From Gemmatimonadota bacterium (lineage in GTDB: Bacteria; Gemmatimonadota; Gemmatimonadetes; Gemmatimonadales; GWC2-71-9): DNA of 64,000 bases. Positions within the stretch are counted from its first letter, which is position 1. Each line of letters begins with the position of its first letter. The notes under the pieces are model-generated. The model was not told the DNA's origin. It did no database searches and worked only from the letters and a program-made list of their open reading frames with translations. Location: positions 39,450 to 103,449 of the forward strand of contig JBDHIK010000300.1 of NCBI GenBank assembly GCA_039587475.1, given 5' to 3'. The position numbers were made by a program, and so were the translations under genes. This document shows, one piece after another, positions 14,402 to 64,000 of the stretch.

Positions 14402-14515
14402 CGGCCGCCGCCCTGGTCGCCGGGCGTGCCGCACACGAGGGGCAGGCAGAGCGCTCGACACTCCCGGTGGTGGCTCCTACCTTGGGGCCAACGCGGACAT
14501 CGCCCGGGAGCCGAC

Positions 14516-26541: not shown

Positions 26542-26621
26542 CGCGGGCGGCCGTGCCGGAAGGCCGGGTGCGGCCCCGGTGAACTCGAGCGCCGTGCTTT
26601 GTGAGGAGGGTGCATAACACC

Positions 26622-28148
26622 GTGACGGAGTCCACTGCCTCTACCGTCGCCCAATGGGCCAAGGCCATCGACCACACGCGGTGTATCGGGTGTCACGCAT
26701 GCAGCACCGCCTGCAAGTCCGAGAACGACGTCCCGCTCTCCGTGAACCGTACCTATGTGAAGTACGTCGATGTCGGCGCCTTTCCCCAGGCGCGGCGGGC
26801 CTTCCAGGTCACTCGCTGCAATCAATGCGCCGACCCTCCCTGTGTGGCGGCCTGTCCCACCGCGGCGATGTATCAGCGGGACGACGGGATCGTCGATTTT
26901 GACAAGGCGGCCTGTATTGGATGCAAGGCCTGCATCGCCGCGTGCCCCTACGACGCCATCTTCATCAATCCGGACGACCATTCCGCCGAGAAGTGCAACT
27001 TCTGCGCTCATCGCATCGACATGGGATTGGAACCGGCTTGTGTCGTGGTGTGCCCGACCCAGGCCATCGTGGTCGGCGATCTCCAGGATCCCACGGCACG
27101 GGTTACCCAGTTGGCCCAACGTGAAGCCGTCGCCGTCCGCAGGCCTGAAAAGGAGACCCGGCCCAAGCTGTTCTACCTCGGCGCCCATCACGCCACGCTC
27201 GACCCCATCGCGGCCACCCGTCCGGACGGCGGTCTCTTCATGTGGAGTGAGCAGGCCACCGGACCGCATTCGGTCGTGTCCGGCCACCCGGGGGCGACGA
27301 CCAGTTCCGCTGCTGCGATCTTGTCTTACGACGTGCCGCACAAGGCGCCGTGGGACTGGCGTGTCAGTCTGTACACCTGGACCAAGGGCATCGCCGCGGG
27401 AGCCTACCTGGTCCCACTGCTGCTCGTGGTGCTCGGCGTGCTGGATCCTGCCAGTGCCTTGTGGCACTATGGCGCGCCGGTCATGGGCGGCGCCTTCCTG
27501 GGGTTGACCGGCCTGCTCCTCATCTGGGATCTGGAACACCCCGGCCGCTTCTGGTACATCTTCGCCCGCCCCCAGCTACGGAGTTGGCTCGTTCGTGGCG
27601 GATTCATCATCGGGGGCTACTCGGTTGTGCTTGCCGGGCACTTTGCCGCGGTCCTGGCAGGTGTCGATGGTGCGCTCATGTGGCTGGCCTTCGCAGGCGT
27701 GCCACTGGCAGCTCTCACCGCGATCTATACGGCCTACCTGTTTGCCCAGGCCAAGGGACGGGACTTGTGGCAGAACCCGCTCCTGCCCCCTCAGTTGCTG
27801 GTGCAGACCATCCTGGTCGGGGCCGCGGCGTTCTTGCCCCTGGCGGCTGTATGGGAACCATCCGTCGCGCCGGTGTTGCTCCGTCTCGTGGCCGGTGGCG
27901 CCAGTCTGTATCTCCTGCTGGTCCTGGGCGAGATGACGTTGGCTCACCCGACCGCGCATGCCAAGCTGGCCGCCTGGGAGATGACCTCCGGGCGTTACCG
28001 TCACTATTTCTGGGCCGGGATGGTGCTGCTTGCGGCGGCCGTCACCGCCCCCTGGCTCGGGATCACCGCCGCGCCACTGGCTCTGGCCGGGGTCCTGGCG
28101 CACGAGCACGCCTACGTGCAGGCGGGGCAAGCCGTCCCGCTGGCATGA
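26622..28148 (+). CDS. fusion protein: 4x[4Fe-4S] ferredoxin subunit (PsrB/TtrB/SoeB-like) fused to NrfD/PsrC-type 8-TM quinone-interacting membrane anchor
   Basis: Four Cys clusters (CIGCHACSTAC, CNQCADPPCVAACP, CIGCKACIAACP, CNFC...CVVVCP); C-terminal ~265 aa with ~8 TM helices; SD GAGGAGGG at 26603-26610 then GTG 26622 (ORF-track start is 26601); no Tat/Sec signal. Confidence 0.85.
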   Translation: MTESTASTVAQWAKAIDHTRCIGCHACSTACKSENDVPLSVNRTYVKYVDVGAFPQARRAFQVTRCNQCADPPCVAACPTAAMYQRDDGIVDFDKAACIGCKACIAACPYDAIFINPDDHSAEKCNFCAHRIDMGLEPACVVVCPTQAIVVGDLQDPTARVTQLAQREAVAVRRPEKETRPKLFYLGAHHATLDPIAATRPDGGLFMWSEQATGPHSVVSGHPGATTSSAAAILSYDVPHKAPWDWRVSLYTWTKGIAAGAYLVPLLLVVLGVLDPASALWHYGAPVMGGAFLGLTGLLLIWDLEHPGRFWYIFARPQLRSWLVRGGFIIGGYSVVLAGHFAAVLAGVDGALMWLAFAGVPLAALTAIYTAYLFAQAKGRDLWQNPLLPPQLLVQTILVGAAAFLPLAAVWEPSVAPVLLRLVAGGASLYLLLVLGEMTLAHPTAHAKLAAWEMTSGRYRHYFWAGMVLLAAAVTAPWLGITAAPLALAGVLAHEHAYVQAGQAVPLA

Positions 28149-28158
28149 GGAAACGACC

Positions 28159-31080
28159 ATGACGTCGAACGAACTGAACGAGCGGGTCACCGCTGCCCGG
28201 GACCAGGTAGAACGACGAGGGGAGACGTTCTACCCGGGTCCCAGCCGGATCCACCTCGCCGCGTTCCCGCCAAAGGAGCGCTGGGATGATTGGGTCGAGC
28301 TGGACTCGAAGGCATGGCCCGAGGCCAGCGAGCGGCGTTATACCCTGATCCCCACGACCTGCTTCAACTGCGAGTCCGCGTGCGGCCTGCTGGCGTACGT
28401 AGACCGCGACACGCTCGGGGTTCGGAAGTTCGAGGGGAATCCGGAGCATCCCGGGTCCCGGGGGCGCAATTGTGCCAAGGGACCGGCGACCCTGAACCAG
28501 ATTACCGATCCCGACCGTATCCTGGCGCCGCTCAAGCGCGCCGGGGCTCGCGGGGAAGGCCGGTGGGTCGAAGTGGGATGGGATGAAGCCCTGGACGACA
28601 TCGCGGGCCGCATCCGGAAGGCCATCCAGGAGAAGCGTCACAACGAGATCATGTATCACGTGGGGCGCCCTGGCGAGGACGGCTACACCGAACGCATCAT
28701 GGCGGCCTGGGGTGTGGACGGGCACAACTCGCACACCAACGTGTGTTCCTCCAACGCAAGAGCCGGCTACCAGTACTGGAGTGGTATCGACCGTCCCAGT
28801 CCGGATTTCGCCAACGCCCGGGTGATCCTGTTGGTGTCGGCGCACCTCGAGACCGGCCACTACTTCAACCCCCATGCCCAGCGCATCATGGAGGGGAAAC
28901 AGGACGGCGCCAAACTGGTGGTGTTCGATACCCGGCTGTCCAACACCGCCACCCACGCCGACCACTGGGTATCGCCCCATCCCGGGTCGGAGGCCGCGGT
29001 CTTTCTTGCCATCGCCAACGACCTGATTCAGCACGACCGCTACGACCGGGATTTCGTCCGTCGCTGGTGGAACTGGTCCGAGTACCTCGAGGCGGAATAC
29101 CCGGACCGGGCGGCGACGTTCGAGACGTTCGAGGAGGTTCTCAAGGAACTCTACGCCGATTACACCTTCGCGTTCGCGGCGCAGGAGTCCGGCGTGGACG
29201 AAGAGACGCTGAGAGACATCTCCCGACTGGTCGCGTCCGCGGGGACCCGGCTGGCCACGCATAACTGGCGCAGTGCCGCGGCCGGCAACGAAGGTGGATG
29301 GCAGGTCAGCCGCACGCTCTTTCTGCTGAATGCGTTGCTGGGAGCCATCGCCACCGAGGGCGGCACCACTCCCAACGCCTGGAACAAGTTCGTTCCCAAG
29401 CCCATTCACCTGCCGCCACACCCCAATGTCTGGAATCCGTTGACTTGGCCGGGAGAGTATCCACTGGCCATGAACGAGTTGTCCTTCCTGCTGCCGCATT
29501 TTCTGAAGGAGGGTCGCGGCCGACTGGATGTCTATTTCACACGCGTCTACAACCCGGTCTGGACCAATCCGGATGGGTTTTCGTGGATCGAGGTTCTGTC
29601 GGACGAGTCCCTCATCGGGATGCACGTCGCACTGACGCCCACCTGGAACGAGTCGGCCTACTTCGCCGACTACGTCCTTCCCATGGGGCACAGTTCCGAG
29701 CGGCACGACCTGACCTCCTACGAGACGGCCAACGGCCAGTGGATCGGCTTTCGCCAGCCGGTCCTGCGTGCCATGCGTGAGCGGCTCGGACAGCCCGTGT
29801 CGGATACCCGCGAAACCAACCCGGGCCAGGTCTGGGAGGAAAACGAGTTCTGGATCGACCTCACCTGGCGCATCGACCCCGACGGGTCATTGGGAATCCG
29901 CCAGTATGTGGAATCGAGATCCGCACCCGGAACGAAACTCGGCGTCGACGAATACTATGGCTATGCCTTCGAGCACTCGGTCCCGGGGCTGCCGGAGCGA
30001 GCCCAGGCCGAAGGCCTGACACCCCTCGAGTACATGCGGCGCTACGGTGCGTTCAGTGTCACGGCCAACGTGGATCCACCATACGAACGCGCGGTCCCCA
30101 CCGAGGAACTGGAGGACCCCGCAGAGTCAGCCCATGGGAGGGTCTTCACCCGGGCTCACAAGCCGCCCAATCCCAACATTGCCCCGCAGGCCGCGCCAGA
30201 GGGAGATGCCGAGGGCCGGCGCCCGGTCGGCGTCAATGTGGACGGGACGGTCCTGCGCGGCTTCCCCACTCCCAGCGGACGGCTGGAGTTCTACTCTACC
30301 ACGCTCGCCCAATGGGGCTGGCCCGAGTTTGCGCTTCCGACGTACATCAAGAGCCATGTCCACCCCGACCGGTTGGCCGACGACCAGGTCGTCCTGATTT
30401 CGACGTTCCGCCTGCCGGTGCACATCCACACCCGGAGTGCCAACGCCAAGTGGCTCACGGAAATCGCCCACACCAATCCCCTGTGGCTGCACCCGGACGA
30501 CGCGGGACCGCTCGGTGTCGGGACGGGCGATCTGATGCGTGTCGAGACGGAGATCGGCCATTTCGTCGTCAAGGCCTGGGTGACGGACGGCATCCGCCCC
30601 GGGGTGGTGGCCTGCAGCCATCACATGGGCCGCTGGAAACTCTCGGCGGAAGCCCATGGGACCATCACCGCCACGGCCGACCTGAATCATCAGGGGCACG
30701 ATTGGCGCCTGCGCCGCTCCAGCGGATCCACCAGGCCCGGCGCCGGAAGCGCAGAGGCCGCCCGGATCTGGTGGACCGACGTCGGTGTCCATCAAAACCT
30801 GACGTTCCCCGTGCATCCCGACCCGGTGACCGGACAACACTGTTGGCACCAGGCGGTGCGTGTTCGCAGGGCCCTTCCCAGCGATTGCCACGGCGACGTC
30901 TCGGTCGATAGCGCCAAGGCCGGGGCCGTTTACCGTGCCTGGCTGCAGAGGACCCGGTCGGCGCAAGAGCACTCTCCGGACGGGACCCGGAGACCGTTCT
31001 GGCTCATCCGCCCGCTCAAGCCTCCCAAGGAGGTGTTCCGGCTACCGGGGACCCCGGCTACCCGGGCAGGCTCGGAATAG
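28159..31080 (+). CDS. molybdopterin (bis-MGD) oxidoreductase catalytic subunit, DMSO-reductase superfamily (Psr/Ttr/Soe-like), no Tat signal
   Basis: ATG 28159 after GAGGAA; N-terminal FeS motif CFNCESACGLLAYVD...x26...CAKG; MopB core; C-terminal molybdopterin-dinucleotide-binding domain (...GDLMRVETEIGHFVVKAWVTDGIRPGVVACSHHMG); N-terminus MTSNELNERVTAARDQVERRGETFYPG lacks an RRxFLK Tat motif; extra ~150 aa C-terminal tail. Confidence 0.9.
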   Translation: MTSNELNERVTAARDQVERRGETFYPGPSRIHLAAFPPKERWDDWVELDSKAWPEASERRYTLIPTTCFNCESACGLLAYVDRDTLGVRKFEGNPEHPGSRGRNCAKGPATLNQITDPDRILAPLKRAGARGEGRWVEVGWDEALDDIAGRIRKAIQEKRHNEIMYHVGRPGEDGYTERIMAAWGVDGHNSHTNVCSSNARAGYQYWSGIDRPSPDFANARVILLVSAHLETGHYFNPHAQRIMEGKQDGAKLVVFDTRLSNTATHADHWVSPHPGSEAAVFLAIANDLIQHDRYDRDFVRRWWNWSEYLEAEYPDRAATFETFEEVLKELYADYTFAFAAQESGVDEETLRDISRLVASAGTRLATHNWRSAAAGNEGGWQVSRTLFLLNALLGAIATEGGTTPNAWNKFVPKPIHLPPHPNVWNPLTWPGEYPLAMNELSFLLPHFLKEGRGRLDVYFTRVYNPVWTNPDGFSWIEVLSDESLIGMHVALTPTWNESAYFADYVLPMGHSSERHDLTSYETANGQWIGFRQPVLRAMRERLGQPVSDTRETNPGQVWEENEFWIDLTWRIDPDGSLGIRQYVESRSAPGTKLGVDEYYGYAFEHSVPGLPERAQAEGLTPLEYMRRYGAFSVTANVDPPYERAVPTEELEDPAESAHGRVFTRAHKPPNPNIAPQAAPEGDAEGRRPVGVNVDGTVLRGFPTPSGRLEFYSTTLAQWGWPEFALPTYIKSHVHPDRLADDQVVLISTFRLPVHIHTRSANAKWLTEIAHTNPLWLHPDDAGPLGVGTGDLMRVETEIGHFVVKAWVTDGIRPGVVACSHHMGRWKLSAEAHGTITATADLNHQGHDWRLRRSSGSTRPGAGSAEAARIWWTDVGVHQNLTFPVHPDPVTGQHCWHQAVRVRRALPSDCHGDVSVDSAKAGAVYRAWLQRTRSAQEHSPDGTRRPFWLIRPLKPPKEVFRLPGTPATRAGSE

Positions 31081-31083
31081 TCG

Positions 31084-31941
31084 ATGGAGTTGTTCAGGGC
31101 CCTGGGCGCCCTGGCCGAGCGGCCTGATGCCGCGACGACCAGGCTGGCGGAAATCCTCGGCCTCGATCGGGCGCCGACGGCGGAGGAACACACGGCCCTG
31201 TTCCACCTGGAACTGTCCCCGTATGCCTCGGTCTATCTCAATCCCGAAGGCATGCTTGGTGGGGAAGCGCGCGACCGCGTGGCCGGCTTCTGGCGCGCGG
31301 TGGGCCAGGATCCGCCGGGGGAGACGGATCATGTCGCGGTCCTCATGGCCACCTATGCCAGCCTGGCGGACCTGGAGCAGGCAGAGCAGCAGGAGCGCCA
31401 ACAGGCCGCCTTCAGCCGCATGCGATCCGCGTTTCTGTGGGAACACCTCCTCAGTTGGCTTCCGCCGTTTCTCGATGCCGTTCAGGCCGTCGGCCCCGCA
31501 CCGTACCGCCAATGGGGCCGGCTGGTGGATGAGGCCCTCGAGACCGAGGCCCGTCGCACCACGCCTCCGGATAGTCTCTCCATGCACCTGAAACAGCACC
31601 TGCCTCTCGCCTCGTCTGATGAGGATACCGACGCGTTGCTGGCCGGTCTTCTGGCTCCGGTTCGGAGCGGTCTCGTGCTGACGGGCTCGGATCTGGTTCG
31701 GGCCGCGCGGGACACCGGGCTGGCTCGCCGGGCCGGCGAGCGCCGGTTCGTCCTGCGAGCCTTCCTGGAGCAGGATCCGTCGCGTGTCTGGCCCTGGTTG
31801 GCGGAGGAGGCGAACCGGTGGGCCATCCGGCACGAGGCTCGGCGGCCCTGGTTGGCCTCGATCGCAGCGGAGTGGGCCGCCCGCGCCCGCGCCACCGCCC
31901 GGTTGTTGAGCAGCCTCAGCCCATCTGGCGCCGGCCGCTGA
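31084..31941 (+). CDS. TorD/DmsD/NarJ-family molybdoenzyme maturation chaperone
   Basis: ...HLELSPYASVYLNPEGMLGGEA... and GETDHVAVLMATYASLADLE resemble the TorD-family E(P)xDH region; directly follows the catalytic subunit gene (3-nt gap). Confidence 0.65.
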   Translation: MELFRALGALAERPDAATTRLAEILGLDRAPTAEEHTALFHLELSPYASVYLNPEGMLGGEARDRVAGFWRAVGQDPPGETDHVAVLMATYASLADLEQAEQQERQQAAFSRMRSAFLWEHLLSWLPPFLDAVQAVGPAPYRQWGRLVDEALETEARRTTPPDSLSMHLKQHLPLASSDEDTDALLAGLLAPVRSGLVLTGSDLVRAARDTGLARRAGERRFVLRAFLEQDPSRVWPWLAEEANRWAIRHEARRPWLASIAAEWAARARATARLLSSLSPSGAGR

Positions 31942-35591: not shown

Positions 35592-36302
35592 TCAGGGGTT
35601 GGTGGGGCGAATATCCAGCTCGCTCACCGTCGCCCGGGACGGCATGGACAAGAGATCCAACACGACGCGCGCCACGTCGTCCGGTTGGAGGATGCGCTCG
35701 AGATCCGGTTGCATCACGTCCTGATTCCTGATCAACGGGGTATCGACCGACCCCGGGCACACCGCCACGACCCGAATGCCGTCCCCGCGAGCCTCCAGCA
35801 TCAGCGCCCTGCTGAACCCGAGGACGCCGTGCTTTGACGCGCAATAGGCCGTTCCGCCCACGAAACCATTGCGGCCGGCGAGGCTGGCGATATTGATGAT
35901 CGTGCCGTGACTACGCCGCCGCATGCCAGGGAGGACCGCTCTGGTGACGAGGAACGTGCCTCTGAGATTGGTGGACATGGTGGCATCCCAATCGTCGACC
36001 GACAGGTCTTCGAGTGGGCCCATGCGCGCGATACCGGCATTGTTGACGAGGACTTCGATTGGCCCCAGGGTGCTTTGGACGGTATCCACGACAGCGGCCA
36101 CGTCCGCTTCCTGCCCAACGTCGGCTGCGCCTCCGGCCGCATCGATCCCTTGCGCCTCGAGCTCCGTCAACAACAACTCGACCGTGGCCTCATGACGGGC
36201 GCACACCCCTATCCGGTAGCCTTTGCGTCCCAGGAGGAACGCCACGGCCCGGCCGATTCCTTCCGTGGCCCCAGTGACGAATGCAGTGGATGGTCCAGAC
36301 AT
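35592..36302 (-). CDS. SDR family short-chain dehydrogenase/reductase
   Basis: TGATEGIGRA Rossmann motif, NNAG, catalytic S...YCASK triad. Confidence 0.9.
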   Translation of the reverse strand: MSGPSTAFVTGATEGIGRAVAFLLGRKGYRIGVCARHEATVELLLTELEAQGIDAAGGAADVGQEADVAAVVDTVQSTLGPIEVLVNNAGIARMGPLEDLSVDDWDATMSTNLRGTFLVTRAVLPGMRRRSHGTIINIASLAGRNGFVGGTAYCASKHGVLGFSRALMLEARGDGIRVVAVCPGSVDTPLIRNQDVMQPDLERILQPDDVARVVLDLLSMPSRATVSELDIRPTNP

Positions 36303-36312
36303 GGGCTGAAAG

Positions 36313-36651
36313 CTAATAGCGGAGGTCCGGAGGGTGAACGGGACCCCGCTCCCGGGGCACGGTCTGGCGCCGGAGATAGAAGGCGATCCGGTACGCCAGC
36401 TTGCGCACGACGAGCACCTCTCCCGGATCCAGCCAGCCCTGATCCTCGGCGACCATGGCCAGGCGGTGGAGCGCCTGGATGCGGTGCCGGGAGGCGGCGG
36501 GCCGTTCGGCGTGGAGGGCGTTCTGCACCGATCGCAGCGCCCGTGCCAGGCCGTGGGTGGGGCGGCGGGCCAGGCGCGTGGCCAAGCGGTCCAGTTCGCC
36601 CGTCAGGGCTTCCACGTAGGCGTGAAGCGCCTCCTCGCAACCCAGCCACAT
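36313..36651 (-). CDS. hypothetical protein (weak call)
   Basis: 112-aa C-terminal part of ORF 36313..36933 from MWLGCEEALHAYVEALTGELDRL...; sits in an otherwise 500-nt gap; Arg-rich N-terminal part of the ORF looks non-coding. Confidence 0.25.
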   Translation of the reverse strand: MWLGCEEALHAYVEALTGELDRLATRLARRPTHGLARALRSVQNALHAERPAASRHRIQALHRLAMVAEDQGWLDPGEVLVVRKLAYRIAFYLRRQTVPRERGPVHPPDLRY

Positions 36652-36746
36652 GCCGCCAGCATGTCGTGGCGGGCGCCTGTATCCCGTACCACAACGGCGC
36701 CGCCGGGTCCGAAAACATGGCCTCGCAGAGGGAGGCGGCACGTCAT

Positions 36747-36775
36747 TTGACATCTTCCGCGTCTGCCTCCAAGAT
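36747..36775 (+). promoter_or_regulatory. candidate sigma70-type promoter of the EF-G paralog (TTGACA -35, 17-nt spacer, weak CAAGAT -10)
   Basis: Perfect TTGACA at 36747-36752, 35 nt upstream region to ATG 36810; -10 element poor, so low confidence. Confidence 0.25.
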
Positions 36776-36809
36776 CCAGATCTCAACATCTGAAGGAGGT
36801 GGGACCGCG

Positions 36810-38861
36810 ATGAAGGTCTACGATACCACACATATCCGGAACGTTGCCTTCGTCGGACACGGTGGCAGCGGCAAGACGACTCTGGTCGATGCCCTTGCCT
36901 TCGTGTCCGGCTCCAGCCGCAGGCACGGCACAATCACTGACGGCACGACCCTGACGGACTACTCCCAGGATGAAATCGAACGGCAACACTCCATCGGATT
37001 GGGGATGGGGTTCGCCGAGTGGATGGACACCAAGATCAACATGATCGACACGCCCGGTTACCTCGACTTCTTTGGCGAGGCGGTTACCGGATTGCATGCG
37101 GCCGACGCCGCCGTCGTGGTGCTCAGTGGCACCGGCGGTGTGGAAGTCGGCACGGAGAAGGTGTGGGAGATGTGTGACCGGCTGCATCTTCCGCGGATGC
37201 TGTTCGTGTCGCTGATGGACAAGGAGCATGCGGACTTCGAGCGAGTCTTCGCCGACGTGAAGGAGCATCTCTCGCCCAAGGTGTTGCCGGTCGAGATTCC
37301 CGTCGGAGACGGCCATGACTTCCATGGCATCATCAATCTGTTTTCGGGCAAAGCGCACATGTACAAGGCCGGCACACCGACCGGCGAGTACGACGAGGTG
37401 GATGTCCCCGACGAATATGCCGAACGATTTCGTGCCTACAGCGAACAGCTGACCGAGACCGTGGCTTCGACGGATGACACGCTCATCGAACGGTATCTCG
37501 AAGGGGAATCGATTTCCCGGGCCGAAGTGATCACGACCATGAAGCGGGCTATGCTCGCCGGCGAGATCGTGCCACTCTTCGTTGGCAGCGGGGAACTCAC
37601 CTTCGGCATGCGGGCGCTGTTGGCCAAGATGGTGGAACTGTTGCCTTCTCCCGACGAGGTGGAGACCCCCTCGGACGCCCCGCTTGTCGGACGTGTCTTC
37701 AAGACGGTGTCCGAGCCGCATGTCGGCGACGTGAGCCTGTTCCGGGTCTATCAGGGCACGATCAAGAACGGCGATGCGGTGTTTAACGCCGAACACGAGG
37801 TGGTGGAAAAGCTGAACCATCTGTCGGTGCAGCAGGGTCGTGACCGGCACGAGGTGGCCGAATTGGCGCGCGGAGACATCGGGTCCGTCGCCAAGCTGAA
37901 GGACACCCATACCAACGACACCTTCTGTAGCCAGGCGACACCGGTGCATCTCGACCCGATCCCGTTTCCCGAACCCGTCGCAACCTCAGCTGTCCGGGTC
38001 AAGGCCCGGGGCGAGGAGGACAAGCTGGCGGCAGGGCTCCACAAGTTGCACGAGGAGGATCCCACGTTCCACTTCGAGTACAACTCGGAATTGGGGCAGA
38101 CCTTGATCCACGGAATGGGGGAGCGGCACTTCGAGATCCTGCTGAAACGCCTCGAAGGGAAATTCGGGGTCGCGGCCGAACTCCTGCGCCCCAAGATCGC
38201 CTATCGGGAGACCTTGCGAGGACGGGCCGAGGGGCAGGGCAAGCACAAGAAACAGTCGGGAGGGCGGGGCCAGTTCGGTGACTGCTGGATTCGCCTGGCG
38301 CCGCGATCGCGAGGAGAGGGCTACGAGTTCCAGAACAAGATCGTCGGCGGCGTCATCCCCAGTAAGTATGTCCCCGCGGTCGACAAGGGCGTCCGGGAAG
38401 CCGCGGCGCGCGGTGTCGTCGCCGGATATCCGATGGTCGATTTCGCCGCCGAATGTTTCGACGGGTCCCACCATTCCGTCGACTCGAACGAGATGTCGTT
38501 CAAGATGGCGGGCATTCTGGCGTTTCGTAACGTCGCGCCTCAGGCCAGGCCCGCCCTTCTCGAGCCCCTCGACGATGTCGAAGTCTGGACACCGGAAGAC
38601 ACCCTCGGCGACGTGATGGGGGACCTGAGCGGGCGCCGGGGCCAGATCCTCGGCACGGAGCAGGACGGACGGCTGACCAAGATCACCGCCATCGTGCCGC
38701 AATCCGAACTCTATAAGTACTCCACCACGTTGCACTCCATGACCCACGGACGCGGGACGTTCCACCGCAAGTTCCACGGGTACGTGGAAGCGCCACCCGA
38801 GGTCGCCGCCAAGGTGGCCGAGGACACCAAAGCGGAGCGGACTCCCGCCGGCGCCACCTAG
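36810..38861 (+). CDS. elongation factor G paralog (EF-G-like GTPase) with degenerate G3/G4 motifs
   Basis: ATG 36810 preceded by AGGAGG; five-domain EF-G architecture; P-loop GHGGSGKTT; switch II DTPGYLDF (canonical DTPGHVDF); G4 SLMD (canonical NKMD); the 301 upstream codons of ORF 35907..38861 overlap SDR gene antisense and are not coding. Confidence 0.9.
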   Translation: MKVYDTTHIRNVAFVGHGGSGKTTLVDALAFVSGSSRRHGTITDGTTLTDYSQDEIERQHSIGLGMGFAEWMDTKINMIDTPGYLDFFGEAVTGLHAADAAVVVLSGTGGVEVGTEKVWEMCDRLHLPRMLFVSLMDKEHADFERVFADVKEHLSPKVLPVEIPVGDGHDFHGIINLFSGKAHMYKAGTPTGEYDEVDVPDEYAERFRAYSEQLTETVASTDDTLIERYLEGESISRAEVITTMKRAMLAGEIVPLFVGSGELTFGMRALLAKMVELLPSPDEVETPSDAPLVGRVFKTVSEPHVGDVSLFRVYQGTIKNGDAVFNAEHEVVEKLNHLSVQQGRDRHEVAELARGDIGSVAKLKDTHTNDTFCSQATPVHLDPIPFPEPVATSAVRVKARGEEDKLAAGLHKLHEEDPTFHFEYNSELGQTLIHGMGERHFEILLKRLEGKFGVAAELLRPKIAYRETLRGRAEGQGKHKKQSGGRGQFGDCWIRLAPRSRGEGYEFQNKIVGGVIPSKYVPAVDKGVREAAARGVVAGYPMVDFAAECFDGSHHSVDSNEMSFKMAGILAFRNVAPQARPALLEPLDDVEVWTPEDTLGDVMGDLSGRRGQILGTEQDGRLTKITAIVPQSELYKYSTTLHSMTHGRGTFHRKFHGYVEAPPEVAAKVAEDTKAERTPAGAT

Positions 38862-45272: not shown

Positions 45273-46346
45273 TTACGACCACCGGCTCAGTCGCCGGAAG
45301 TACCAGCGAATCAGGGTGTTGCTCGGGGCGACGAAAAAGCTCATGGCCAGAATACGGTAGACCTCTCGGCGAGAGATCTTGACGGTACGCCCTTCGACGA
45401 GGCCGCCGTCTTCAGCGGCAGCCAGTCGCAGCGTCCGCACGGCGAAGAACAGCGATGTCATGCAGAAGAGCCGCACCCGGTACTGCGTGGCCGGCAGCGT
45501 GGTGGTGTAGTCCAGGGCGTCCTGCAAATGCCCACGCGCCTTGGTGATGAGCTCCGCGAACACCCTTCGTGACGGTTCCTGCCGATCGGGCCCGAACAGG
45601 CTCTCGACGTCGATGCCCTCTCGTTCGCACAGCTCTCGGGGGATGAAGCTCCAACCCCGACGATGATCCTGGGAGGCGTCCTTGATGATGTTCGTGAGCT
45701 GGAGGCCCAGGCCGAAACTGGTCGCGTTGGCCGAAAGGCGGGGGATGCGATCCTGATCTCGCCGTCGAAACCTGAGACCATACAGGCCGGTCAGGAGATG
45801 CCCTACCGTCCCGGCGACGTAGTAGCAGTAGCGGTCGAGATCCTCCAGGGTCGCCAGGGTCGGCAAGCCGCTGTCGGACCCTTCAGGCCCGCGGCTGAAT
45901 TCGATCATCCCCCGGGCCATTTCTTCGACCCAGGGCCGGATCGCCTCCTGCTCGGCCGGCGTCAATCGCTGGAAGGTTCGGAGCACCCGGTCGGCGTGAC
46001 GGCACAGGTGGTCTTCGGCGTTCCCCGACGCGTCGAAGGTCCGGCGCAAGTATTCCACGTCGTCCCCGGGGGATCGCAGAGACAGGGCGAACTGTTCCAG
46101 GAGATGATGCTTGTCTGCCAGCGGGAGCGTGGCGTCATCCTCGATCGTGTCGGCAATCCGGCACAGGAGATACGACACGGTCACGGATCGCTTGAGATCC
46201 GCGGGAAGGAGTCGGATGCACAACGCGAAGGTGCGTGACACCTTCGGCAAGGCCGCCACACAATAGGCCCAATCAGCGCCCGCGTCCGCCGGGTGCGGTG
46301 CCAGGGGCGGGGTCTCCGGAGTCTGAGGTCGAACGCTGGATGTCAC
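45273..46346 (-). CDS. squalene/phytoene synthase family (trans-isoprenyl diphosphate synthase, head-to-head)
   Basis: ...VSRTFALCIRLLP...YLLCRIADTIEDD... and ...YCYYVAGTVGHLL... Asp-rich motifs of SQS/PSY family. Confidence 0.85.
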   Translation of the reverse strand: MTSSVRPQTPETPPLAPHPADAGADWAYCVAALPKVSRTFALCIRLLPADLKRSVTVSYLLCRIADTIEDDATLPLADKHHLLEQFALSLRSPGDDVEYLRRTFDASGNAEDHLCRHADRVLRTFQRLTPAEQEAIRPWVEEMARGMIEFSRGPEGSDSGLPTLATLEDLDRYCYYVAGTVGHLLTGLYGLRFRRRDQDRIPRLSANATSFGLGLQLTNIIKDASQDHRRGWSFIPRELCEREGIDVESLFGPDRQEPSRRVFAELITKARGHLQDALDYTTTLPATQYRVRLFCMTSLFFAVRTLRLAAAEDGGLVEGRTVKISRREVYRILAMSFFVAPSNTLIRWYFRRLSRWS

Positions 46347-52646: not shown

Positions 52647-53270
52647 TCACCCGACCATGCGCAACGGCAGTGGAGAGCCCGTTGCCAGCTCGTGCTCGAG
52701 AACGGCGAATGCTTCGTCGGGATCGTACTCGAGATAGCGATTCTTGGCCGTGTGTTCCGCCAGCCATGCAGGAAAGCCCGACGGGATGGCGCCATCCGAC
52801 GAATGTTGTTCGGTGGCCGCCTGCACGGCGAGATCGTTCGAGTATTCGTTCTTCACGTGTCCCTTGTGTCCCCGCACCCAGGTCCACTGCACGTCGTGGC
52901 GGGACGCGGCGTCGACGAGTTCTTGCCACAAGGACAGGTTTTCGACCGGGCCGCCCTTGCGTTTCCACCCCCGGGCACGCCACGAGGGCACCCACTCGCG
53001 CATGCCGCGTACAAGGTATTGCGAATCGGATACGATGGCGACGCGAAATCGTTCCCCTTTGGCGGACAACGCCTTCAGGGTCACGATGGCGCCCGCGATG
53101 GCCATGCGGTTGTTGGTGGTGTCGGGGTCGTGCAGGTAGATGTCACGTCGCTGAACGCCCTGGGTCGTGCGGATCTCGATGAGTCCACCGGCCCCCCCCG
53201 GGTTGGCGCCTTCTCGGCCGTTTCCCAGGCAACTCTCGTCGAGATGCACCACCACGACCGACGGCGTCAT
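52647..53270 (-). CDS. rnhA: ribonuclease HI with ~60-aa C-terminal extension
   Basis: VVVHLDESCLGNGREGANPGGAGGLIEIR...TNNRMAIAGAIVTLKAL...WVRGHKGHVKNEYSNDLA; catalytic D/E/D residues present. Confidence 0.85.
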   Translation of the reverse strand: MTPSVVVVHLDESCLGNGREGANPGGAGGLIEIRTTQGVQRRDIYLHDPDTTNNRMAIAGAIVTLKALSAKGERFRVAIVSDSQYLVRGMREWVPSWRARGWKRKGGPVENLSLWQELVDAASRHDVQWTWVRGHKGHVKNEYSNDLAVQAATEQHSSDGAIPSGFPAWLAEHTAKNRYLEYDPDEAFAVLEHELATGSPLPLRMVG

Positions 53271-53503
53271 CCGTCCTCCGGGTCGATGACCTGAAAGGCG
53301 GTCAGGTCGTTGAGGGCAAACGTCAACTCTTCACCGGTCATCGGCAGGCGCCCGATGAGGGATTCCTGTGACCCGACCATGCGAAGGTCGACGGCGATGA
53401 CGACATACTCGGTGCCGCGCCGTTCCAGGGCGACGCGCTTGCCGGATCGTGTTGCGGACTCCAGCTGGTCGTAGCGATCGCTCGACCATCGCATGGCACT
53501 CAT
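53267..53503 (-). CDS. small hypothetical protein (78 aa)
   Basis: 4-nt overlaps with both selD (upstream) and rnhA (downstream) imply translational coupling; no recognised motif. Confidence 0.45.
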   Translation of the reverse strand: MSAMRWSSDRYDQLESATRSGKRVALERRGTEYVVIAVDLRMVGSQESLIGRLPMTGEELTFALNDLTAFQVIDPEDG

Positions 53504-54576
53504 TCGGAAGGACGGTTGCCGCGGCGAACCAACACGTCACCTGAAGGGCCCTCGACCAGCCGCCCGATGTGCGCCTGTGCGTGGGTCCCCGCTGCCGCAA
53601 GATCAGCCTGCACCAGGTCGAGGTGCTCCGGTGCCACAGCCAGGAGCAGCCCGCCCGAGGTCTGGGCGTCGGCGCATACCAGCCGCCCCGCCTCCGGGAT
53701 GTTCTCCCAGCGTACCCGGCTGGCATGGTCGAGATTGCGGCGGGTGCCGCCGGGGACCACGCCTCGCTCGGCCAGGGAGAGCGTACCGTCCAACACCGGG
53801 AGGGCATCAAAGTCGATTTCGGCCGCGAGCCCGCTTGCCACCAGCATGTTGTTCAGGTGGCCCAGGAGCCCGAATCCGGTGACATCGGTCGCGGCCTTGA
53901 CCCCGTGGCGGACCGCCACGGCCGCGGCATCACGATTGAGCGATTGCATGACGGCGATGGTCTGTACCAGGGCTTCCTCCGCGATCTCGTCGCGCTTCCG
54001 GGCGGTGGTCATGATACCGCTTCCCAGCGGCTTGGTGAGGACCAGTTCCTGGCCCGCGCGGGCCCCCGCCGTGGTCATCATGTGATCAGGATGGACTTCC
54101 CCGACGACCGCAAGGCCGAACTTGGGCTCCGGATCGTCCACCGAGTGGCCTCCCAGCAGCAGGCAGCCCGCGTCACGGGCAACGTCCGCCGCGCCCTCGA
54201 GGACTTCGCCCAGGATCTCGAGCGGAACGGTGTCGCGAGGCCACGCGACCAGGTTGAGTGCGAACAGCGGTGTTCCTCCCATGGCGTAGATGTCACTCAA
54301 GGCATTGGCGCAGGCAATGCGGCCCCAGGCCCCGGCGTCATCGACGATGGGCGTGAAGAAGTCGGTCGTCGCCACGAGCGCTCGATCGGACGACAACAGA
54401 AAGACGGCCGCGTCATCGTGTGACGCGGCCTCCACCAGGACTCGAGTGTCCTCGACCACAGGCAAGTAGCGCAGAACCTGCGCCAGCTCGGCTGCGCCGA
54501 GCTTACTGGCTCAACCGGCGCCGTGCGCCAGGGTGGTCAGCCGGATGCGTGGTCGCTGATCGGCGAGATCGTTCAT
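53500..54576 (-). CDS. selD: selenide, water dikinase (selenophosphate synthetase) SelD, selenocysteine-containing (in-frame TGA at ~54511-54513)
   Basis: ATG 54576: MNDLADQRPRIRLTTLAHGAG-[TGA]-ASKLGAAELAQVLRYLPVVEDTRVLVEAASHDDAAV... aligns with E. coli SelD [30 protein letters not shown]...DDAAV, placing TGA at catalytic Cys17; downstream DFFTPIVDD and IACANALSDIYAMGG SelD motifs; the ORF track splits the gene at the TGA. Confidence 0.8.
54469..54502 (-). promoter_or_regulatory. candidate SECIS-like element: two GC-rich hairpins 11-45 nt downstream of the selD UGA
   Basis: mRNA UGAGCCAGUAA-GCUCGGC-GCA-GCCGAGC-UG-GCGCAG-GUU-CUGCGC: perfect 7-bp and 6-bp stems in the position expected of a bacterial SECIS. 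Confidence 0.45.
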
Positions 54577-54588
54577 GCGTCCGAAGGG

Positions 54589-55506
54589 CTATCCTCGTGT
54601 GCGTGCCCAGAGGAACGCCCGCAACCCGATGAGGGCTCGCTCCTCCTGGGCGGTGGTCCCAAAGGTACCGTCGCTGCGCTGCTGCTCGAGCAGGGCTGGA
54701 ACGGCCCGGCACACGGCGAACTTGGCCTTGGCCGTTCCGGCCGCGACCAGATGGTCCAGCACGTGGAACAGGTCGGCATTGGGCCAGGTGCCGTCACGGT
54801 TCTGGTGGCCGGCGATGAACGCAGCCGCCTCGGGTATGTGGTCGCGAAACGGTGGTGGAGCTACCGCAAGTGGCCCCAGTGCGCTCACGATGGCGTCGGG
54901 AGAAAAATAGCCGTCCCACCGTGTCGAGGTCTCCCGGAGCAGGATCAGGCTTTCCAGATGCTTCCGGACGGCCGGGCGGGCGTCGTGCCCGGCCATGAGG
55001 GAGGCGCGAAGCGCCAGGCAACTGACGGCGAACCGTGCCGCGCCTTCGGAGCGGAACACCTTGCCGCTGGGCAATGAGACCGGAGACAGCCGTTCCGAGG
55101 GCAGGGCCGGCGAGAAGAACCCGCCGACGAAGTGCTCACAGACTTTGTTGGCGTGCCGGGCCTCGTCGCATCCCTGTCCAAAGGCCCCGGGTTGATCCTG
55201 AAGTCCGAGGACCCATCCCACCACCCGAATGACGCCCGCCTCGTCCCGGCGGTGCCCCAATTCCATCAGCTCGATGACGCGCCAGATCGTGGGCACGACC
55301 GCCCCGCCCAGACTCCCGTCCAGGCGGGTTTCCCCCCTGAGCTCGCGTATGAGCCGCGTTCGCAGGATTTCGTCTCCGGCAACGAGCCGGTCCAGGGCAC
55401 GCCTCGCCAGCAGGCCCTGTCGGGTGGCCCGGGACTCGAAGAACGCGCCCAGGCGGTCGATGCCGTCCTGCAGGCCCGGGATCCGGTGTTTGACGAGGGT
55501 CATCAT
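54589..55506 (-). CDS. hypothetical protein with prenyltransferase/squalene-oxidase-like alpha-alpha toroid repeats (tentative)
   Basis: Repeated ...DGS(L/F)G..., RDGTWPN, SDGTFG motifs reminiscent of terpenoid cyclase/prenyltransferase repeats. Confidence 0.45.
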   Translation of the reverse strand: MMTLVKHRIPGLQDGIDRLGAFFESRATRQGLLARRALDRLVAGDEILRTRLIRELRGETRLDGSLGGAVVPTIWRVIELMELGHRRDEAGVIRVVGWVLGLQDQPGAFGQGCDEARHANKVCEHFVGGFFSPALPSERLSPVSLPSGKVFRSEGAARFAVSCLALRASLMAGHDARPAVRKHLESLILLRETSTRWDGYFSPDAIVSALGPLAVAPPPFRDHIPEAAAFIAGHQNRDGTWPNADLFHVLDHLVAAGTAKAKFAVCRAVPALLEQQRSDGTFGTTAQEERALIGLRAFLWARTRG

Positions 55507-62606: not shown

Positions 62607-63941
62607 TCAGTTGGTGATCAGGTCTTCCAGGTAGGCCAGTGCGGCAGGGTCGTCCGATTGCCCCAGCCAGAAGACGGCGTTCTCGCGCAGGTCATGGTCA
62701 CGCTCCGTCTTCGCAATGTCCATCAGCTTGGCCAGAGCGTCGGCATCGTCCATTTGCGAGTACACGAAGATCAATTGCTGCTTGAGTTCCCGGTCCTGGA
62801 CTCCGTCGTACGCTTCCAACAGACGACCCTCGGCCCCACCGGTCTGGCCGACCCAGAACAGGGCGTTCTTGCGGAGCGCTACGGGTTCGGCGGCATCGCC
62901 GGCAAGGGCCATGAGCCAATCGATGGCGGTCTCGGTCCCCACCTGGGCCATACTGAAGATGACCTTCTCCCTGAGATCCTCGATCTCCAGGTGCGGGTAC
63001 ACCGCGGCGAGGAAGGAAACGGTCTCTCGCTCGCCTCCCTGTCCCAACCAGAAAATGGCGTTCTCTCGCCGCTCGGTGGCGACCGAACGGTCGACGACCA
63101 GCGCCTCGAGCGCGGCATGCGCCTCCGGGCTGTCGTGCTGTGACAAGGCGAACACTGCGTTCTCGCCCAGTGCGTCGGACTCGCGAGCCAGGGCTTCGAG
63201 GAAGGCCACGATATCGGGAGCGTCGGTCTGGCCCAGCCAGAAGACGGCGTTCTCCCGCAGGTCCGTCGGTGCGCCGATCTGGGCAATGCGTTTGAGAGCC
63301 GCTGCGCCTCCGTGGTCACTTTCCTGGGACAGCCCGAAGACCGCTGCCTCGCGGACATCCATCGGGAGCCCCTCGTCCATGGCCAGGACCTCGAGCTCTT
63401 CGGCCACCTCGGCATCCGTGCCGTGACTGAGCCAGAAGACCGCGGCTTTTCTGGTGTCGGTCGTGGGAGCGGATGACCGAGCCAGTCGCAGGAGCGGCGC
63501 AGCCAATTCGATGCTGTCTGCCAGAACGGCGGCGAAGACCAGGTCCTCGCCGCTGTCCGCCGAGGCGGACTCCGCCAGGCGCAAGAGATCCCTGGCTGCT
63601 GCTGGCGCCGGAACCAGGCCCACATCGGTGATGGGTCCGCTGGCGGCCGGCCAGGACGCACGTCCGACCCGGACGTGAGACTCGACGACTCGTCCATTTC
63701 GGACACTCAGCTGGAGAAACGCCGGCCCCTCGATACAGGGTTCATCGTTCCATCTGCCACGGTGGACGTCCTGGGTGACGAGTTGGATGTTGTCCCGGGT
63801 GCCACAGGTTCCGGGACGGGTCTGGTACGTTGCCCGAACTACACCGCGCTCGACCTGTGAGACCTGATCCGTCAGGTCCTGCGCGCCGGCGGGTATTGCT
63901 CCGAGGACGCCGGCCACGGCAGCGACGAAGAGGTGTCTCAT
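62607..63941 (-). CDS. secreted HEAT-repeat (PBS-lyase-like) protein, long paralog
   Basis: Signal peptide MRHLFVAAVAGVLGAIPAGAQ; same N-terminal domain as 61849..62583; six or more repeats carrying (E/K)NA(V/I/L)FWLGQ motif. Confidence 0.7.
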   Translation of the reverse strand: MRHLFVAAVAGVLGAIPAGAQDLTDQVSQVERGVVRATYQTRPGTCGTRDNIQLVTQDVHRGRWNDEPCIEGPAFLQLSVRNGRVVESHVRVGRASWPAASGPITDVGLVPAPAAARDLLRLAESASADSGEDLVFAAVLADSIELAAPLLRLARSSAPTTDTRKAAVFWLSHGTDAEVAEELEVLAMDEGLPMDVREAAVFGLSQESDHGGAAALKRIAQIGAPTDLRENAVFWLGQTDAPDIVAFLEALARESDALGENAVFALSQHDSPEAHAALEALVVDRSVATERRENAIFWLGQGGERETVSFLAAVYPHLEIEDLREKVIFSMAQVGTETAIDWLMALAGDAAEPVALRKNALFWVGQTGGAEGRLLEAYDGVQDRELKQQLIFVYSQMDDADALAKLMDIAKTERDHDLRENAVFWLGQSDDPAALAYLEDLITN

Positions 63942-64000
63942 GGGAACCGCCCTTTGGCTGAAGAGGCCGGGCGCGAGGGAAATCCTTCCCGCGCGCCCCC

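What the first reader, a model, noticed from the sequence alone, without database searches (positions are those of the whole stretch)
54466..54576. selD is a selenoprotein: in-frame UGA at the catalytic Cys position plus SECIS-like hairpins, and the ORF track splits the gene there
The N-terminal 37 codons reconstructed upstream of the annotated ORF align with the E. coli SelD N-terminus and put TGA exactly where Cys17 (GAGCGCK) sits (…LAHGAG-U-ASKLGAAEL…). Immediately 3' of the UGA the mRNA folds into two perfect GC-rich hairpins at +12 to +45, the expected SECIS location. Sec-containing SelD is known in some bacteria and implies a complete Sel machinery (selA, selB, tRNA-Sec) and probably other selenoproteins elsewhere, which standard gene callers will have truncated.
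Basis: partly seen in the sequence, partly recalled or inferred. Interest (0 to 1): 0.7.

Follow-up and report, generated by a model that had tools for sequence, protein, structure and literature searches.

The report
Selenocysteine-coding selD gene with SECIS hairpin
The selD gene of this soil-type Gemmatimonadales bacterium does carry an in-frame UGA that is read as selenocysteine with the help of one conserved RNA hairpin, which is correct but ordinary because SelD is one of the two most widespread bacterial selenoproteins.

Summary
Confirmed, but ordinary. On the minus strand, selD runs from ATG 54576 to the stop codon at 53502-53500 (358 codons). Its codon 22 is TGA (54513-54511), which aligns with catalytic Cys17 of E. 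coli SelD and with Cys in over 100 full-length Gemmatimonadales homologs. All DNA-verified members of the immediate clade keep the TGA. So do 89 of 124 classifiable SelD loci from many phyla.

Both flanks of the TGA evolve mainly by synonymous change. TGA is the normal stop for 28 of 58 window genes. Sequencing error, pseudogene and code reassignment are therefore excluded.

Hairpin 2 (54484-54468; 7-bp stem, GUU loop, 33 nt after UGA, -9.6 kcal/mol) meets every published bSECIS constraint. It is 92% paired in TGA-type genes against 49% in Cys-type genes, with compensatory changes in 6 of 7 pairs. Hairpin 1 (54503-54485) shows no synonymous-site covariation and looks like a by-product of the K-L-G..E-L codons.

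No selA, selB or tRNA-Sec lies in the 72 kb of this contig I could read. Sec-SelD and its SECIS are already described (Zhang 2006; Mariotti 2015).

The parts
53500..54576 (-). Full-length selD (selenide, water dikinase): 358 codons including Sec22, plus the stop codon
   Evidence: Translation. AIRS and AIRS_C domains. TIGR00476 selD equivalog 380 bits (cut-off 125) and NF002098 360 bits (cut-off 299). E = 1.9e-78 to E. coli SelD 3U0O.
54574..54576 (-). True ATG start codon, 12 nt after the stop codon of the upstream gene
   Evidence: The N-terminus MN(D/E)..ADQ(R/K)PRIRLT is shared with the clade loci L166, L161 and L081. An ungapped comparison of the 30 nt before the ATG shows about one-third identity, meaning no conservation.
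54511..54513 (-). In-frame UGA read as selenocysteine (residue 22, equivalent to E. coli Cys17)
54468..54484 (-). SECIS element (hairpin 2): GGCGCAG / GUU loop / CUGCGCU. It lies within the codons for L-A-Q-V-L-R-Y, and the stem pairs with the stem of itself across the A-Q-V-L-R codons. The apical loop is at 54477-54475.
   Evidence: Paired in 91.7% of cells in TGA-type genes against 48.6% in Cys-type; 6 of 7 pairs change on both sides. It is the only RNAalifold consensus helix. MFE -9.6 kcal/mol, and at least 6 of 7 pairs in 89% against 3% of genes. Synonymous covariation OR 18.6, p = 7e-5. An independent covariance model places its top hit here: 34 bits, E = 7e-8.
54485..54503 (-). Hairpin 1: AGCUCGGC / GCA / GCCGAGCU, within the codons K-L-G-A-A-E-L. 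It is stable in this sequence but is probably a by-product of the codons, not part of the family-wide SECIS.
   Evidence: -13.2 kcal/mol. Paired in 74% against 59% of cells. No synonymous covariation (OR 1.2, p = 0.75). Absent from the RNAalifold consensus. Still perfect in the Cys-type gene L001.
53500..54435 (-). Truncated public gene call (P0001, 311 aa, GTG start), which lacks the catalytic loop
   Evidence: Thirteen further close homolog clusters are truncated in the same way (P0002-P0006, P0009-P0011, P0013, P0020, P0023, P0030, P0082).

Best explanation
This is an intact selD gene whose catalytic residue is selenocysteine.

Shown:
- The UGA at 54513-54511 occupies the Cys17 position of the glycine-rich N-terminal loop (H-G-A-G-U-A-S-K; Lys25 corresponds to E. 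coli Lys20).
- 26 nt further on sits a 7-bp hairpin with a G-U-N apical loop (54484-54468). It is conserved in structure, with compensatory changes, in genes that carry UGA. It is degraded in relatives that carry Cys.

Inferred from the established bacterial mechanism:
- SelB.GTP.Sec-tRNA(Sec) binds the apical part of this hairpin while the ribosome approaches. It then delivers Sec to the UGA in the A site in competition with RF2.
- The hairpin lies inside the reading frame, so it fixes the peptide A-Q-V-L-R. That peptide is present in 45 of 88 distinct TGA-type genes and in 1 of 35 Cys-type genes.
- The enzyme makes selenophosphate, which is needed to make its own Sec residue. Its synthesis is therefore self-dependent on selenium supply.

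Gene callers stop at the UGA and restart downstream, so the annotated protein lacks the active-site loop.
For: - Position: the TGA aligns with Cys17 of E. coli SelD and with Cys in every full-length homolog listed (SHGAGCACKLG).
- Family: the protein passes both SelD equivalog models.
- Conservation of the TGA: it is present in the immediate clade from independent assemblies (L081/L162, L161, L163-L166) and in 89 of 124 classifiable SelD loci from many phyla. The window sits in a 22-member clade with no Cys form.
- Translation through the UGA: against L166, the upstream 21 codons show 8 synonymous and 2 non-synonymous differences. The downstream 50 codons show 22 and 7.
- Genetic code: 28 of 58 window genes end in TGA, so the code is standard.
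- Hairpin 2 meets all published bSECIS constraints (PMC13188914 Fig. 2A; numbers).
- Hairpin 2 pairing: 91.7% against 48.6% of cells, with compensatory changes in 6 of 7 pairs; 0 of 500 shuffles reach the observed values for four of the five measures, and 3 of 500 for the count of pairs changed on both sides. Slid controls give 27-41%.
- RNAalifold finds only this helix. Stability differs between TGA-type and Cys-type genes (Mann-Whitney p = 3.6e-12).
- Synonymous Gln/Leu covariation gives OR 18.6.
- A covariance model built without the window or its clade ranks this site first in 128 kb (34 bits). It finds the held-out clade loci at 33-39 bits.
- In other lineages, TGA-type selD lies next to selA, selB and tRNA-Sec.
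- Literature: 19% of prokaryotic SelD genes have Sec, always at this position, with a bSECIS (PMC4561486).
Against: - No selA, selB or tRNA-Sec lies in the window or in the 8 kb upstream, 72 kb in all. The rest of the genome could not be examined.
- The single-sequence fold is not significant (z = -1.56).
- No Rfam family matches.
- Part of the covariance-model score comes from conserved coding sequence. The Cys-type gene L001, which encodes the same peptide, still scores 31.6 bits.
- The shuffle and Fisher statistics are not corrected for phylogeny.
- There is no experimental evidence of selenium incorporation.
Confidence: 0.93

Rival explanations
1. The UGA terminates translation. A shortened SelD is made from an internal start (TTG 54465 or GTG 54435), as the public annotation implies.
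For: Open frames with start codons exist at these positions. No Sec machinery was seen in 72 kb.
Against: - Such a product lacks the whole loop that carries the catalytic Sec/Cys17 and Lys20.
- The 21 codons before the UGA and the 15-25 codons between the UGA and the internal starts are conserved at protein level, with mostly synonymous DNA changes.
- The internal start positions differ between homologs.
Confidence: 0.02
2. The UGA is read through without selenocysteine (near-cognate Trp or Cys insertion, helped by the hairpins), in a genome without selA, selB and selC. This would be comparable to insect SPS1-UGA.
For: The Sec machinery was not found in the accessible 72 kb. SECIS-independent read-through of the homologous UGA is proposed for Hymenoptera (PMC4561486).
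Against: - The conserved hairpin has the G-U apical loop and the spacing of SelB-dependent bSECIS elements (PMC13188914).
- The same element accompanies selD genes that lie beside selA, selB and tRNA-Sec in other phyla.
- In the genomes surveyed, Sec-form SelD went together with the Sec-decoding trait (PMC1794560; PMC4561486).
Confidence: 0.03
3. The TGA is a sequencing or assembly error, or the gene is a decaying pseudogene.
For: It is a single stop codon in an otherwise open frame of a metagenome contig.
Against: - The same TGA is present in independent assemblies of the clade (ENA, NCBI and three Logan runs) and in 89 other loci.
- There are no further stops or frameshifts, and the full length matches the SelD models.
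- The substitution pattern is synonymous-biased on both sides of the TGA.
Confidence: 0.01

Closest known systems
Sec-containing bacterial SelD (for example Haemophilus influenzae and Aquifex aeolicus SelD), as surveyed by Zhang et al. 2006 (PMC1794560) and Mariotti et al. 2015 (PMC4561486)
   Same: UGA at the single invariant position (E. coli Cys17) in the N-terminal Gly-rich loop, a conserved Lys three residues later, a bSECIS inside the reading frame directly downstream, and gene calls that are routinely truncated. It aligns over most of its length with A. aeolicus SelD 2YYE/2ZOD (E = 7e-61).
   Different: The lineage is an uncultured Gemmatimonadales clade. The phylum is not mentioned in the two surveys I searched. 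The second Cys of the C-x-C-K motif is Ser here (U-A-S-K). A non-Cys residue at that position occurs in 27 of 88 TGA-type genes against 2 of 35 Cys-type genes.
Bacterial SECIS consensus model (bSECISearch model, as summarised in PMC13188914 Fig. 2A)
   Same: Hairpin 2 has a 3-nt apical loop beginning G-U, a 7-bp upper stem, 33 nt between the UGA and the loop, and an MFE of -9.6 kcal/mol. All four constraints are met.
   Different: The spacing is near the upper end of the allowed 16-37 nt range. The interval is filled by a second stable hairpin that is not conserved across the family. No Rfam model matches the region.
E. coli fdhF SECIS (the best-studied bSECIS)
   Same: A stem-loop inside the coding region after the UGA, with G and U exposed in the apical loop for SelB. 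This comparison is from my own knowledge of the E. coli system.
   Different: From my own knowledge, the essential upper stem-loop in fdhF starts about 11 nt after the UGA and carries a bulged U. Here the stem starts 26 nt after the UGA and has no bulge. I did not test this comparison with a tool.
Cys-type SelD of related Gemmatimonadales (for example L001 = JAHECL010000002.1, P0007, P0008)
   Same: 62-67% identical proteins, some encoding the same L-A-Q-V-L-R-H peptide.
   Different: TGC in place of TGA. In L001, hairpin 2 is weakened by synonymous codon changes (CUC and CGG in place of CUG and CGC; 5 of 7 pairs; -4.3 kcal/mol). This fits the SECIS remnants after Sec-to-Cys conversion described in PMC1794560.

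Membership tests
SelD / selenophosphate synthetase (TIGR00476, NF002098) | Scores above the curated cut-off of the equivalog HMMs | tested here: met
   TIGR00476 380.2 bits (cut-off 125); NF002098 360.3 bits (cut-off 299).
SelD / selenophosphate synthetase (TIGR00476, NF002098) | AIRS N-terminal plus AIRS C-terminal two-domain architecture | tested here: met
   PF00586 at residues 54-161 and PF02769 at residues 173-349.
SelD / selenophosphate synthetase (TIGR00476, NF002098) | Gly-rich N-terminal loop with Sec or Cys at the E. coli Cys17 position and Lys at the Lys20 position | tested here: met
   HGAG-U-ASK aligns with HGAGCGCK of 3U0O; query residue 22 corresponds to chain residue 17.
SelD / selenophosphate synthetase (TIGR00476, NF002098) | ATP-dependent synthesis of selenophosphate from selenide | not testable with these tools
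   This needs an enzyme assay.
Bacterial selenoprotein gene (Sec-decoded UGA) | In-frame UGA aligned with Cys in homologs | tested here: met
Bacterial selenoprotein gene (Sec-decoded UGA) | UGA conserved in orthologs from independent sources | tested here: met
   Clade loci L081 and L161-L166; 89 loci in total.
Bacterial selenoprotein gene (Sec-decoded UGA) | Protein-level constraint on both sides of the UGA | tested here: met
   Against L166: 8 synonymous and 2 non-synonymous differences upstream, 22 and 7 downstream.
Bacterial selenoprotein gene (Sec-decoded UGA) | UGA is otherwise a stop codon in the genome (no code reassignment) | tested here: met
   28 of 58 window genes end in TGA.
Bacterial selenoprotein gene (Sec-decoded UGA) | selA, selB and tRNA-Sec present in the same genome | not testable with these tools
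   They are absent from the 72 kb of contig Ga0451564_000619 that could be read. That is uninformative, because none of the Gemmatimonadota loci showed linkage.
Bacterial selenoprotein gene (Sec-decoded UGA) | Selenium actually incorporated (75Se labelling or mass spectrometry) | not testable with these tools
   This needs an experiment.
bSECIS consensus model (PMC13188914 Fig. 2A) | Apical loop of 3-9 nt and upper stem of 4-16 bp | tested here: met
   Hairpin 2 has a 3-nt loop and a 7-bp stem.
bSECIS consensus model (PMC13188914 Fig. 2A) | G in the first two loop positions, usually followed by G or U | tested here: met
   The loop is GUU. G37 is invariant and U38 is at least 90% conserved in the 90 TGA-type sequences. 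A G[GU] loop start occurs in 97% of TGA-type against 57% of Cys-type genes.
bSECIS consensus model (PMC13188914 Fig. 2A) | 16-37 nt between the UGA and the apical loop | tested here: met
   33 nt for hairpin 2. Hairpin 1 has 15 nt and fails this criterion.
bSECIS consensus model (PMC13188914 Fig. 2A) | MFE of -7.5 kcal/mol or lower | tested here: met
   -9.6 kcal/mol.
bSECIS consensus model (PMC13188914 Fig. 2A) | Structure supported by covariation, and specific to the UGA form | tested here: met
   The statistics are not phylogeny-corrected.
Any Rfam family (including the SECIS families) | Match to a curated covariance model | tested here: not met
   No hit at gathering score in the window. 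Only two chance hits (E = 6.7 and 9) appear in 54300-54700.

The most novel reading that the evidence does not exclude
This bacterial clade might keep a conserved UGA and hairpin in selD without having selA, selB and tRNA-Sec. The hairpin would then drive SelB-independent read-through, a bacterial counterpart of insect SPS1-UGA. My evidence cannot exclude this, because only 72 kb of the genome was visible and it holds no Sec machinery. A milder novel reading (probability about 0.1) is that hairpin 1 acts as a lineage-specific spacer that brings the distal SECIS, 33 nt from the UGA, within reach of SelB.
Probability: 0.02. Interest if true: 0.8.

Novelty: new member of a known kind. Interest (0 to 1): 0.2.

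Why it matters
The main value is practical.
- **Annotation:** the public annotation of this gene, and of 13 further closely related protein clusters, lacks the active-site loop. Automated metabolic reconstructions of these Gemmatimonadales would therefore carry a crippled SelD and miss the selenocysteine trait.
- **Lineage:** the result adds an uncultured Gemmatimonadales clade to the lineages with Sec-form SelD. It implies that these organisms decode UGA as Sec.
- **By-product:** the 88-sequence alignment and the hairpin-2 model give a compact selD-SECIS signature (GCGCAG-GUN-CUGCGC, coding A-Q-V-L-R). It is shared across many phyla, has no Rfam counterpart, and could be used to rescue truncated selD calls.

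None of this changes the current understanding of selenoprotein synthesis.

Tried and rejected
- **Rfam:** scans of the window and of 54300-54700 found nothing relevant.
- **Single-sequence folding:** not significant on its own.
- **Genome and metagenome scans with the SelD protein:** swamped by the universal DFFTPIVD pattern.
- **Look-up of P0001:** not on record. ThyA and a peptidase gene did locate the contig.
- **Other possible split selenoprotein genes, all rejected:**
  - Rhomboid and DUF4212 at 13520-14776 share a frame across a TGA but are separate genes.
  - Three further TGA sites are antisense frames of minus-strand genes.
  - The in-frame 93-aa plus AhpC-like pair beside selD in L161-L165 has its WCPGC motif intact in the second ORF.
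- **The molybdopterin oxidoreductase at 28030-31080:** no internal stop, so it is not a Sec enzyme.
- **Off-target covariance-model hits** (window 54749-54774, L054:17193, L103:1983): no in-frame TGA at SECIS distance upstream (none within 60 nt for the two locus hits; the window hit lies in an open ORF).
- **SelA profile search:** I extracted SelA and SelB from other phyla but did not spend a whole-database search on them. The tool scores only the 8,000 candidates sharing most words and lists the best 120. These would be relatives of the seeds, not Gemmatimonadota, so the same-genome question would stay open.

Full report
**What is in the sequence.** The feature lies on the minus strand. Translation from ATG 54576 gives MNDLADQRPRIRLTTLAHGAG*ASKLGAAELAQVLRYLPVV..., with a single in-frame TGA at 54513-54511 (codon 22). 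The frame is then open to the stop codon at 53502-53500. The 100%-identical database protein P0001 begins later still, at residue 48 (311 aa). With the TGA read as a residue, the 358-aa protein has the AIRS and AIRS_C domains. It passes both NCBIfam SelD equivalog models: TIGR00476 at 380 bits against a cut-off of 125, and NF002098 at 360 against 299. It aligns over most of its length with E. coli SelD 3U0O (E = 1.9e-78). Query residue 22 falls on Cys17, and Lys25 falls on Lys20 of HGAGCGCK.

**Is the TGA real and decoded?**
- All full-length homologs among the 120 best database hits carry Cys at that position (SHGAGCACKLG). They are 61-67% identical, and those with names are labelled Gemmatimonadales. 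The 14 clusters closest to the window (69-100% identity) are all called N-terminally truncated.
- I fetched DNA for members of that group: L081/L162, L161, L163-L165, and the syntenic L166. These come from ENA, NCBI and Logan assemblies. Each reads AHGAG-TGA-ASKLG.
- In a neighbour-joining tree, the window sits in a clade of 22 sequences that are all TGA-verified or truncated calls. The next sister group is 10 Cys-type Gemmatimonadales.
- Against L166, the 21 codons upstream of the TGA differ by 8 synonymous and 2 non-synonymous changes. The next 50 codons differ by 22 and 7. An ungapped comparison of the 30 nt before the ATG shows no conservation.
- TGA ends 28 of the 58 genes I called in the window, so the genetic code is standard.

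Together these results exclude a sequencing error, a pseudogene and a reassigned codon. They also make an internally initiated, loop-less product very unlikely.

**How general is it?** I fetched 160 SelD loci from genomes and metagenomes.

| Codon at the catalytic position | Loci |
|---|---|
| TGA | 89 |
| TGC or TGT | 35 |
| No match to my motif filter | 36 |

By record title, the TGA-type loci include Gemmatimonadota, Actinomycetota, Verrucomicrobiota, Neomarinimicrobiota, Chloroflexota (Dehalococcoidia), Planctomycetota, Latescibacterota and others. In several of these lineages selD lies beside tRNA-Sec, selA and selB: Verrucomicrobia (L045, L052, L059), Thermoleophilaceae and Actinomycetes (L033, L078), Dehalococcoidia (L068, L157), and Planococcaceae (L074, L079).

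| | Hairpin 1 | Hairpin 2 |
|---|---|---|
| Position from the U of UGA | nt 11-29 | nt 30-46 |
| Window coordinates | 54503-54485 | 54484-54468 |
| Stem and loop | 8 bp, loop GCA | 7 bp, loop GUU |
| MFE | -13.2 kcal/mol | -9.6 kcal/mol |
| Cells paired, TGA-type against Cys-type | 74.3% against 58.9% | 91.7% against 48.6% |
| Synonymous-site covariation | OR 1.2, p = 0.75 | OR 18.6, p = 7e-5 |
| UGA-to-loop spacing | 15 nt (outside 16-37) | 33 nt (inside) |

The region of this one sequence does not fold better than shuffles (z = -1.56). The test therefore has to be comparative.
- The 60 nt from the codon align without gaps in 90 TGA-type sequences (A1) and in 35 Cys-type sequences (A2).
- In hairpin 2 of the TGA-type genes, 6 of 7 pairs change on both sides. 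For the named two-hairpin structure, 0 of 500 shuffles reach the observed value for four of the five measures, and 3 of 500 do for the count of pairs changed on both sides. Sliding the partners drops pairing to 27-41%. The Cys-type genes show no excess over shuffles.
- RNAalifold, given no structure, returns only hairpin 2.
- At least 6 of 7 hairpin-2 pairs are kept in 89% of TGA-type genes against 3% of Cys-type genes. The hairpin-2 MFE differs with p = 3.6e-12.
- At the purely synonymous pair of hairpin 2, the third base of Gln CAR pairs with the first base of Leu YUG. CAA goes with UUG in 10 of 12 cases, and CAG goes with UUG in 14 of 66. The equivalent pair of hairpin 1 (Lys AAR with Leu YUG) shows no association.
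- Hairpin 1 is also intact in the Cys-type gene L001.
- Hairpin 2 satisfies all four published bSECIS constraints: loop of 3-9 nt, stem of 4-16 bp, G then G or U at the start of the loop, 16-37 nt from the UGA, and MFE of -7.5 kcal/mol or lower (PMC13188914, Fig. 2A legend; numbers).

My conclusion is that hairpin 2 is the SECIS. Hairpin 1 is most simply a by-product of the palindromic codons AAG-CUC-GGC...GCC-GAG-CUG. A lineage-specific helper role is not excluded.

**Independent model.** I built a covariance model of the 26 nt around hairpin 2 from 88 TGA-type genes, leaving out the window and its clade.
- With filters off, its best hit in both strands of the window is 54489-54464 on the minus strand, at 34.0 bits and E = 7e-8.
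- The runner-up (22.2 bits, two broken pairs) lies inside the neighbouring ORF, which encodes DLFHVLDHL and has no upstream TGA.
- The held-out clade loci score 32.8-38.8 bits at the right place.
- Caveat: the Cys-type gene L001 encodes the same A-Q-V-L-R peptide but uses CUC and CGG codons, and it still scores 31.6 bits. Part of the score therefore reflects conserved coding sequence, or a SECIS remnant after a Sec-to-Cys switch. Such remnants are described in PMC1794560.
- Of the 35 Cys-type genes, 28 give no hit at the homologous site.

**Mechanism.** Two things are shown: the position of the UGA, and the conserved, UGA-specific hairpin with its G-U loop. The rest is inferred from the established bacterial pathway (summarised in PMC13188914 and PMC5029168). 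SelB.GTP.Sec-tRNA(Sec) binds the hairpin and delivers Sec at the UGA in competition with release factor 2. The hairpin lies inside the frame, so it constrains the peptide. A-Q-V-L-R occurs in 45 of 88 distinct TGA-type genes. The most frequent peptide at that site in Cys-type genes occurs only four times, and A-Q-V-L-R occurs once. The stem begins 26 nt after the UGA. From my own knowledge, this is further than in E. coli fdhF, but it is within the published range.

**Context and the Sec machinery.** The window is the last 64 kb of JGI metagenome contig 3300041024 Ga0451564_000619, which is 103,477 bp long. Window position 1 corresponds to contig position 39,478.
- ARAGORN finds no tRNA in the window.
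- Pfam scans of the genes I called found no SelA or SelB. Neither did the gene table for the 8 kb upstream or a motif scan for the SelA PLP site and the SelB GTPase site.
- No other ORF in the window is interrupted by a TGA with coding-like sequence on both sides.
- selD lies 12 nt after a prenyl-cyclase-like gene. Its stop overlaps by 4 nt a conserved 78-aa ORF of unknown function, which is followed by RNase H. The same order is found in L166.
- None of the neighbours is selenium-related.

**What is known.**
- Zhang et al. 2006 (PMC1794560) call FdhA and SelD the most widespread bacterial selenoproteins. They describe Sec-to-Cys conversions in SelD that leave SECIS remnants.
- Mariotti et al. 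2015 (PMC4561486) found Sec in 19% of the SelD genes detected in their reference prokaryotic genomes, "always in the same position". They recovered the bSECIS of Sec-containing SelD genes with RNAz, and they note that such genes are usually misannotated.
- Gemmatimonadetes or Gemmatimonadota are not mentioned in PMC5029168 or PMC13188914. Three full-text searches turned up no report of Sec-form SelD in that phylum among the titles and abstracts listed, and I read only one of those papers.

**Verdict.** Only the second hairpin is the SECIS, and the trans-acting machinery is inferred rather than seen. This is a new member, in a little-studied lineage, of a thoroughly known kind. It is useful for fixing annotation but not surprising. 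Interest is 0.2.

Noticed in passing
window 54511-54507 (-), compared across A1 and A2: The second Cys of the SelD C-x-C-K motif (E. coli Cys19) is Ser in the window (U-A-S-K). A non-Cys residue at this position occurs in 27 of 88 TGA-type genes but in only 2 of 35 Cys-type genes (Fisher p = 0.002, not phylogeny-corrected). This suggests the second thiol is more dispensable when residue 17 is Sec.
   Followed up: partly
L001:10064-10123 (JAHECL010000002.1, Gemmatimonadetes MAG): This Cys-type selD encodes the same L-A-Q-V-L-R-H peptide as the Sec forms. Hairpin 2 is weakened only by synonymous codons (5 of 7 pairs, -4.3 kcal/mol), and it still scores 31.6 bits with the SECIS model. It looks like a recent Sec-to-Cys conversion with a decaying SECIS.
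   Followed up: partly
window 53267-53503 (-): A 78-aa ORF overlaps the selD stop by 4 nt (ATGA). It has no Pfam or NCBIfam match and is conserved in position in the syntenic locus L166 (73 aa). It is probably co-transcribed with selD. Its function is unknown.
   Followed up: partly
window 54749-54774 (-): The second-best hit of the selD-SECIS model (22.2 bits) lies inside the upstream prenyl-cyclase-like gene, where the peptide DLFHVLDHL mimics ELAQVLRHL. There is no TGA upstream and two pairs are broken. The homologous site in L166 scores 14.6 bits. I judge it a chance resemblance.
   Followed up: yes
window 25471-31941 (+): A molybdopterin oxidoreductase cluster: an ORF with no Pfam match (25471-26541), a 4Fe-4S/NrfD fusion (26583-28148), a 1016-aa catalytic subunit of the PhsA/DMSO-reductase type (28030-31080), and a TorD-like chaperone (31084-31941). 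The catalytic subunit has no internal TGA, so it is not a Sec enzyme. Its substrate is unknown.
   Followed up: partly
window 35907-38861 (+): The EF-G ORF appears to have a 300-codon N-terminal extension. That extension has non-coding composition (GC2 0.77, GC3 0.52). A start at ATG 36810 is preceded by GAAGGAGGTG. This is an over-long ORF, not an unusual EF-G.
   Followed up: yes
window 10589-11038 (+): An MsrB (SelR-domain) gene. The family is a selenoprotein in mammals. Here the frame is intact and the catalytic motif is RYCIN, so it is the Cys form.
   Followed up: yes
window 13520-14776 (+): A rhomboid protease ORF ends in TGA at 14399-14401, and the DUF4212 ORF follows in the same frame. 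It looks like a split selenoprotein, but these are two unrelated genes.
   Followed up: yes
L161:4709-5494 (-) and the same genes in L162-L165: Beside selD in the sister lineage, a 93-aa ORF and a 161-aa AhpC/redoxin ORF are in frame across a TGA. The WCPGC redox motif is intact in the second ORF, so this is not a Sec-peroxiredoxin.
   Followed up: yes
window 64000 = end of contig Ga0451564_000619; window 45273-46346 and 54589-55506 (-): The window ends exactly at the contig end, so gene 62607-63998 is cut off. The window also carries a squalene/phytoene synthase gene and a weak squalene-cyclase-repeat gene directly upstream of selD. This hints at terpenoid metabolism, which I did not pursue.
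   Followed up: no
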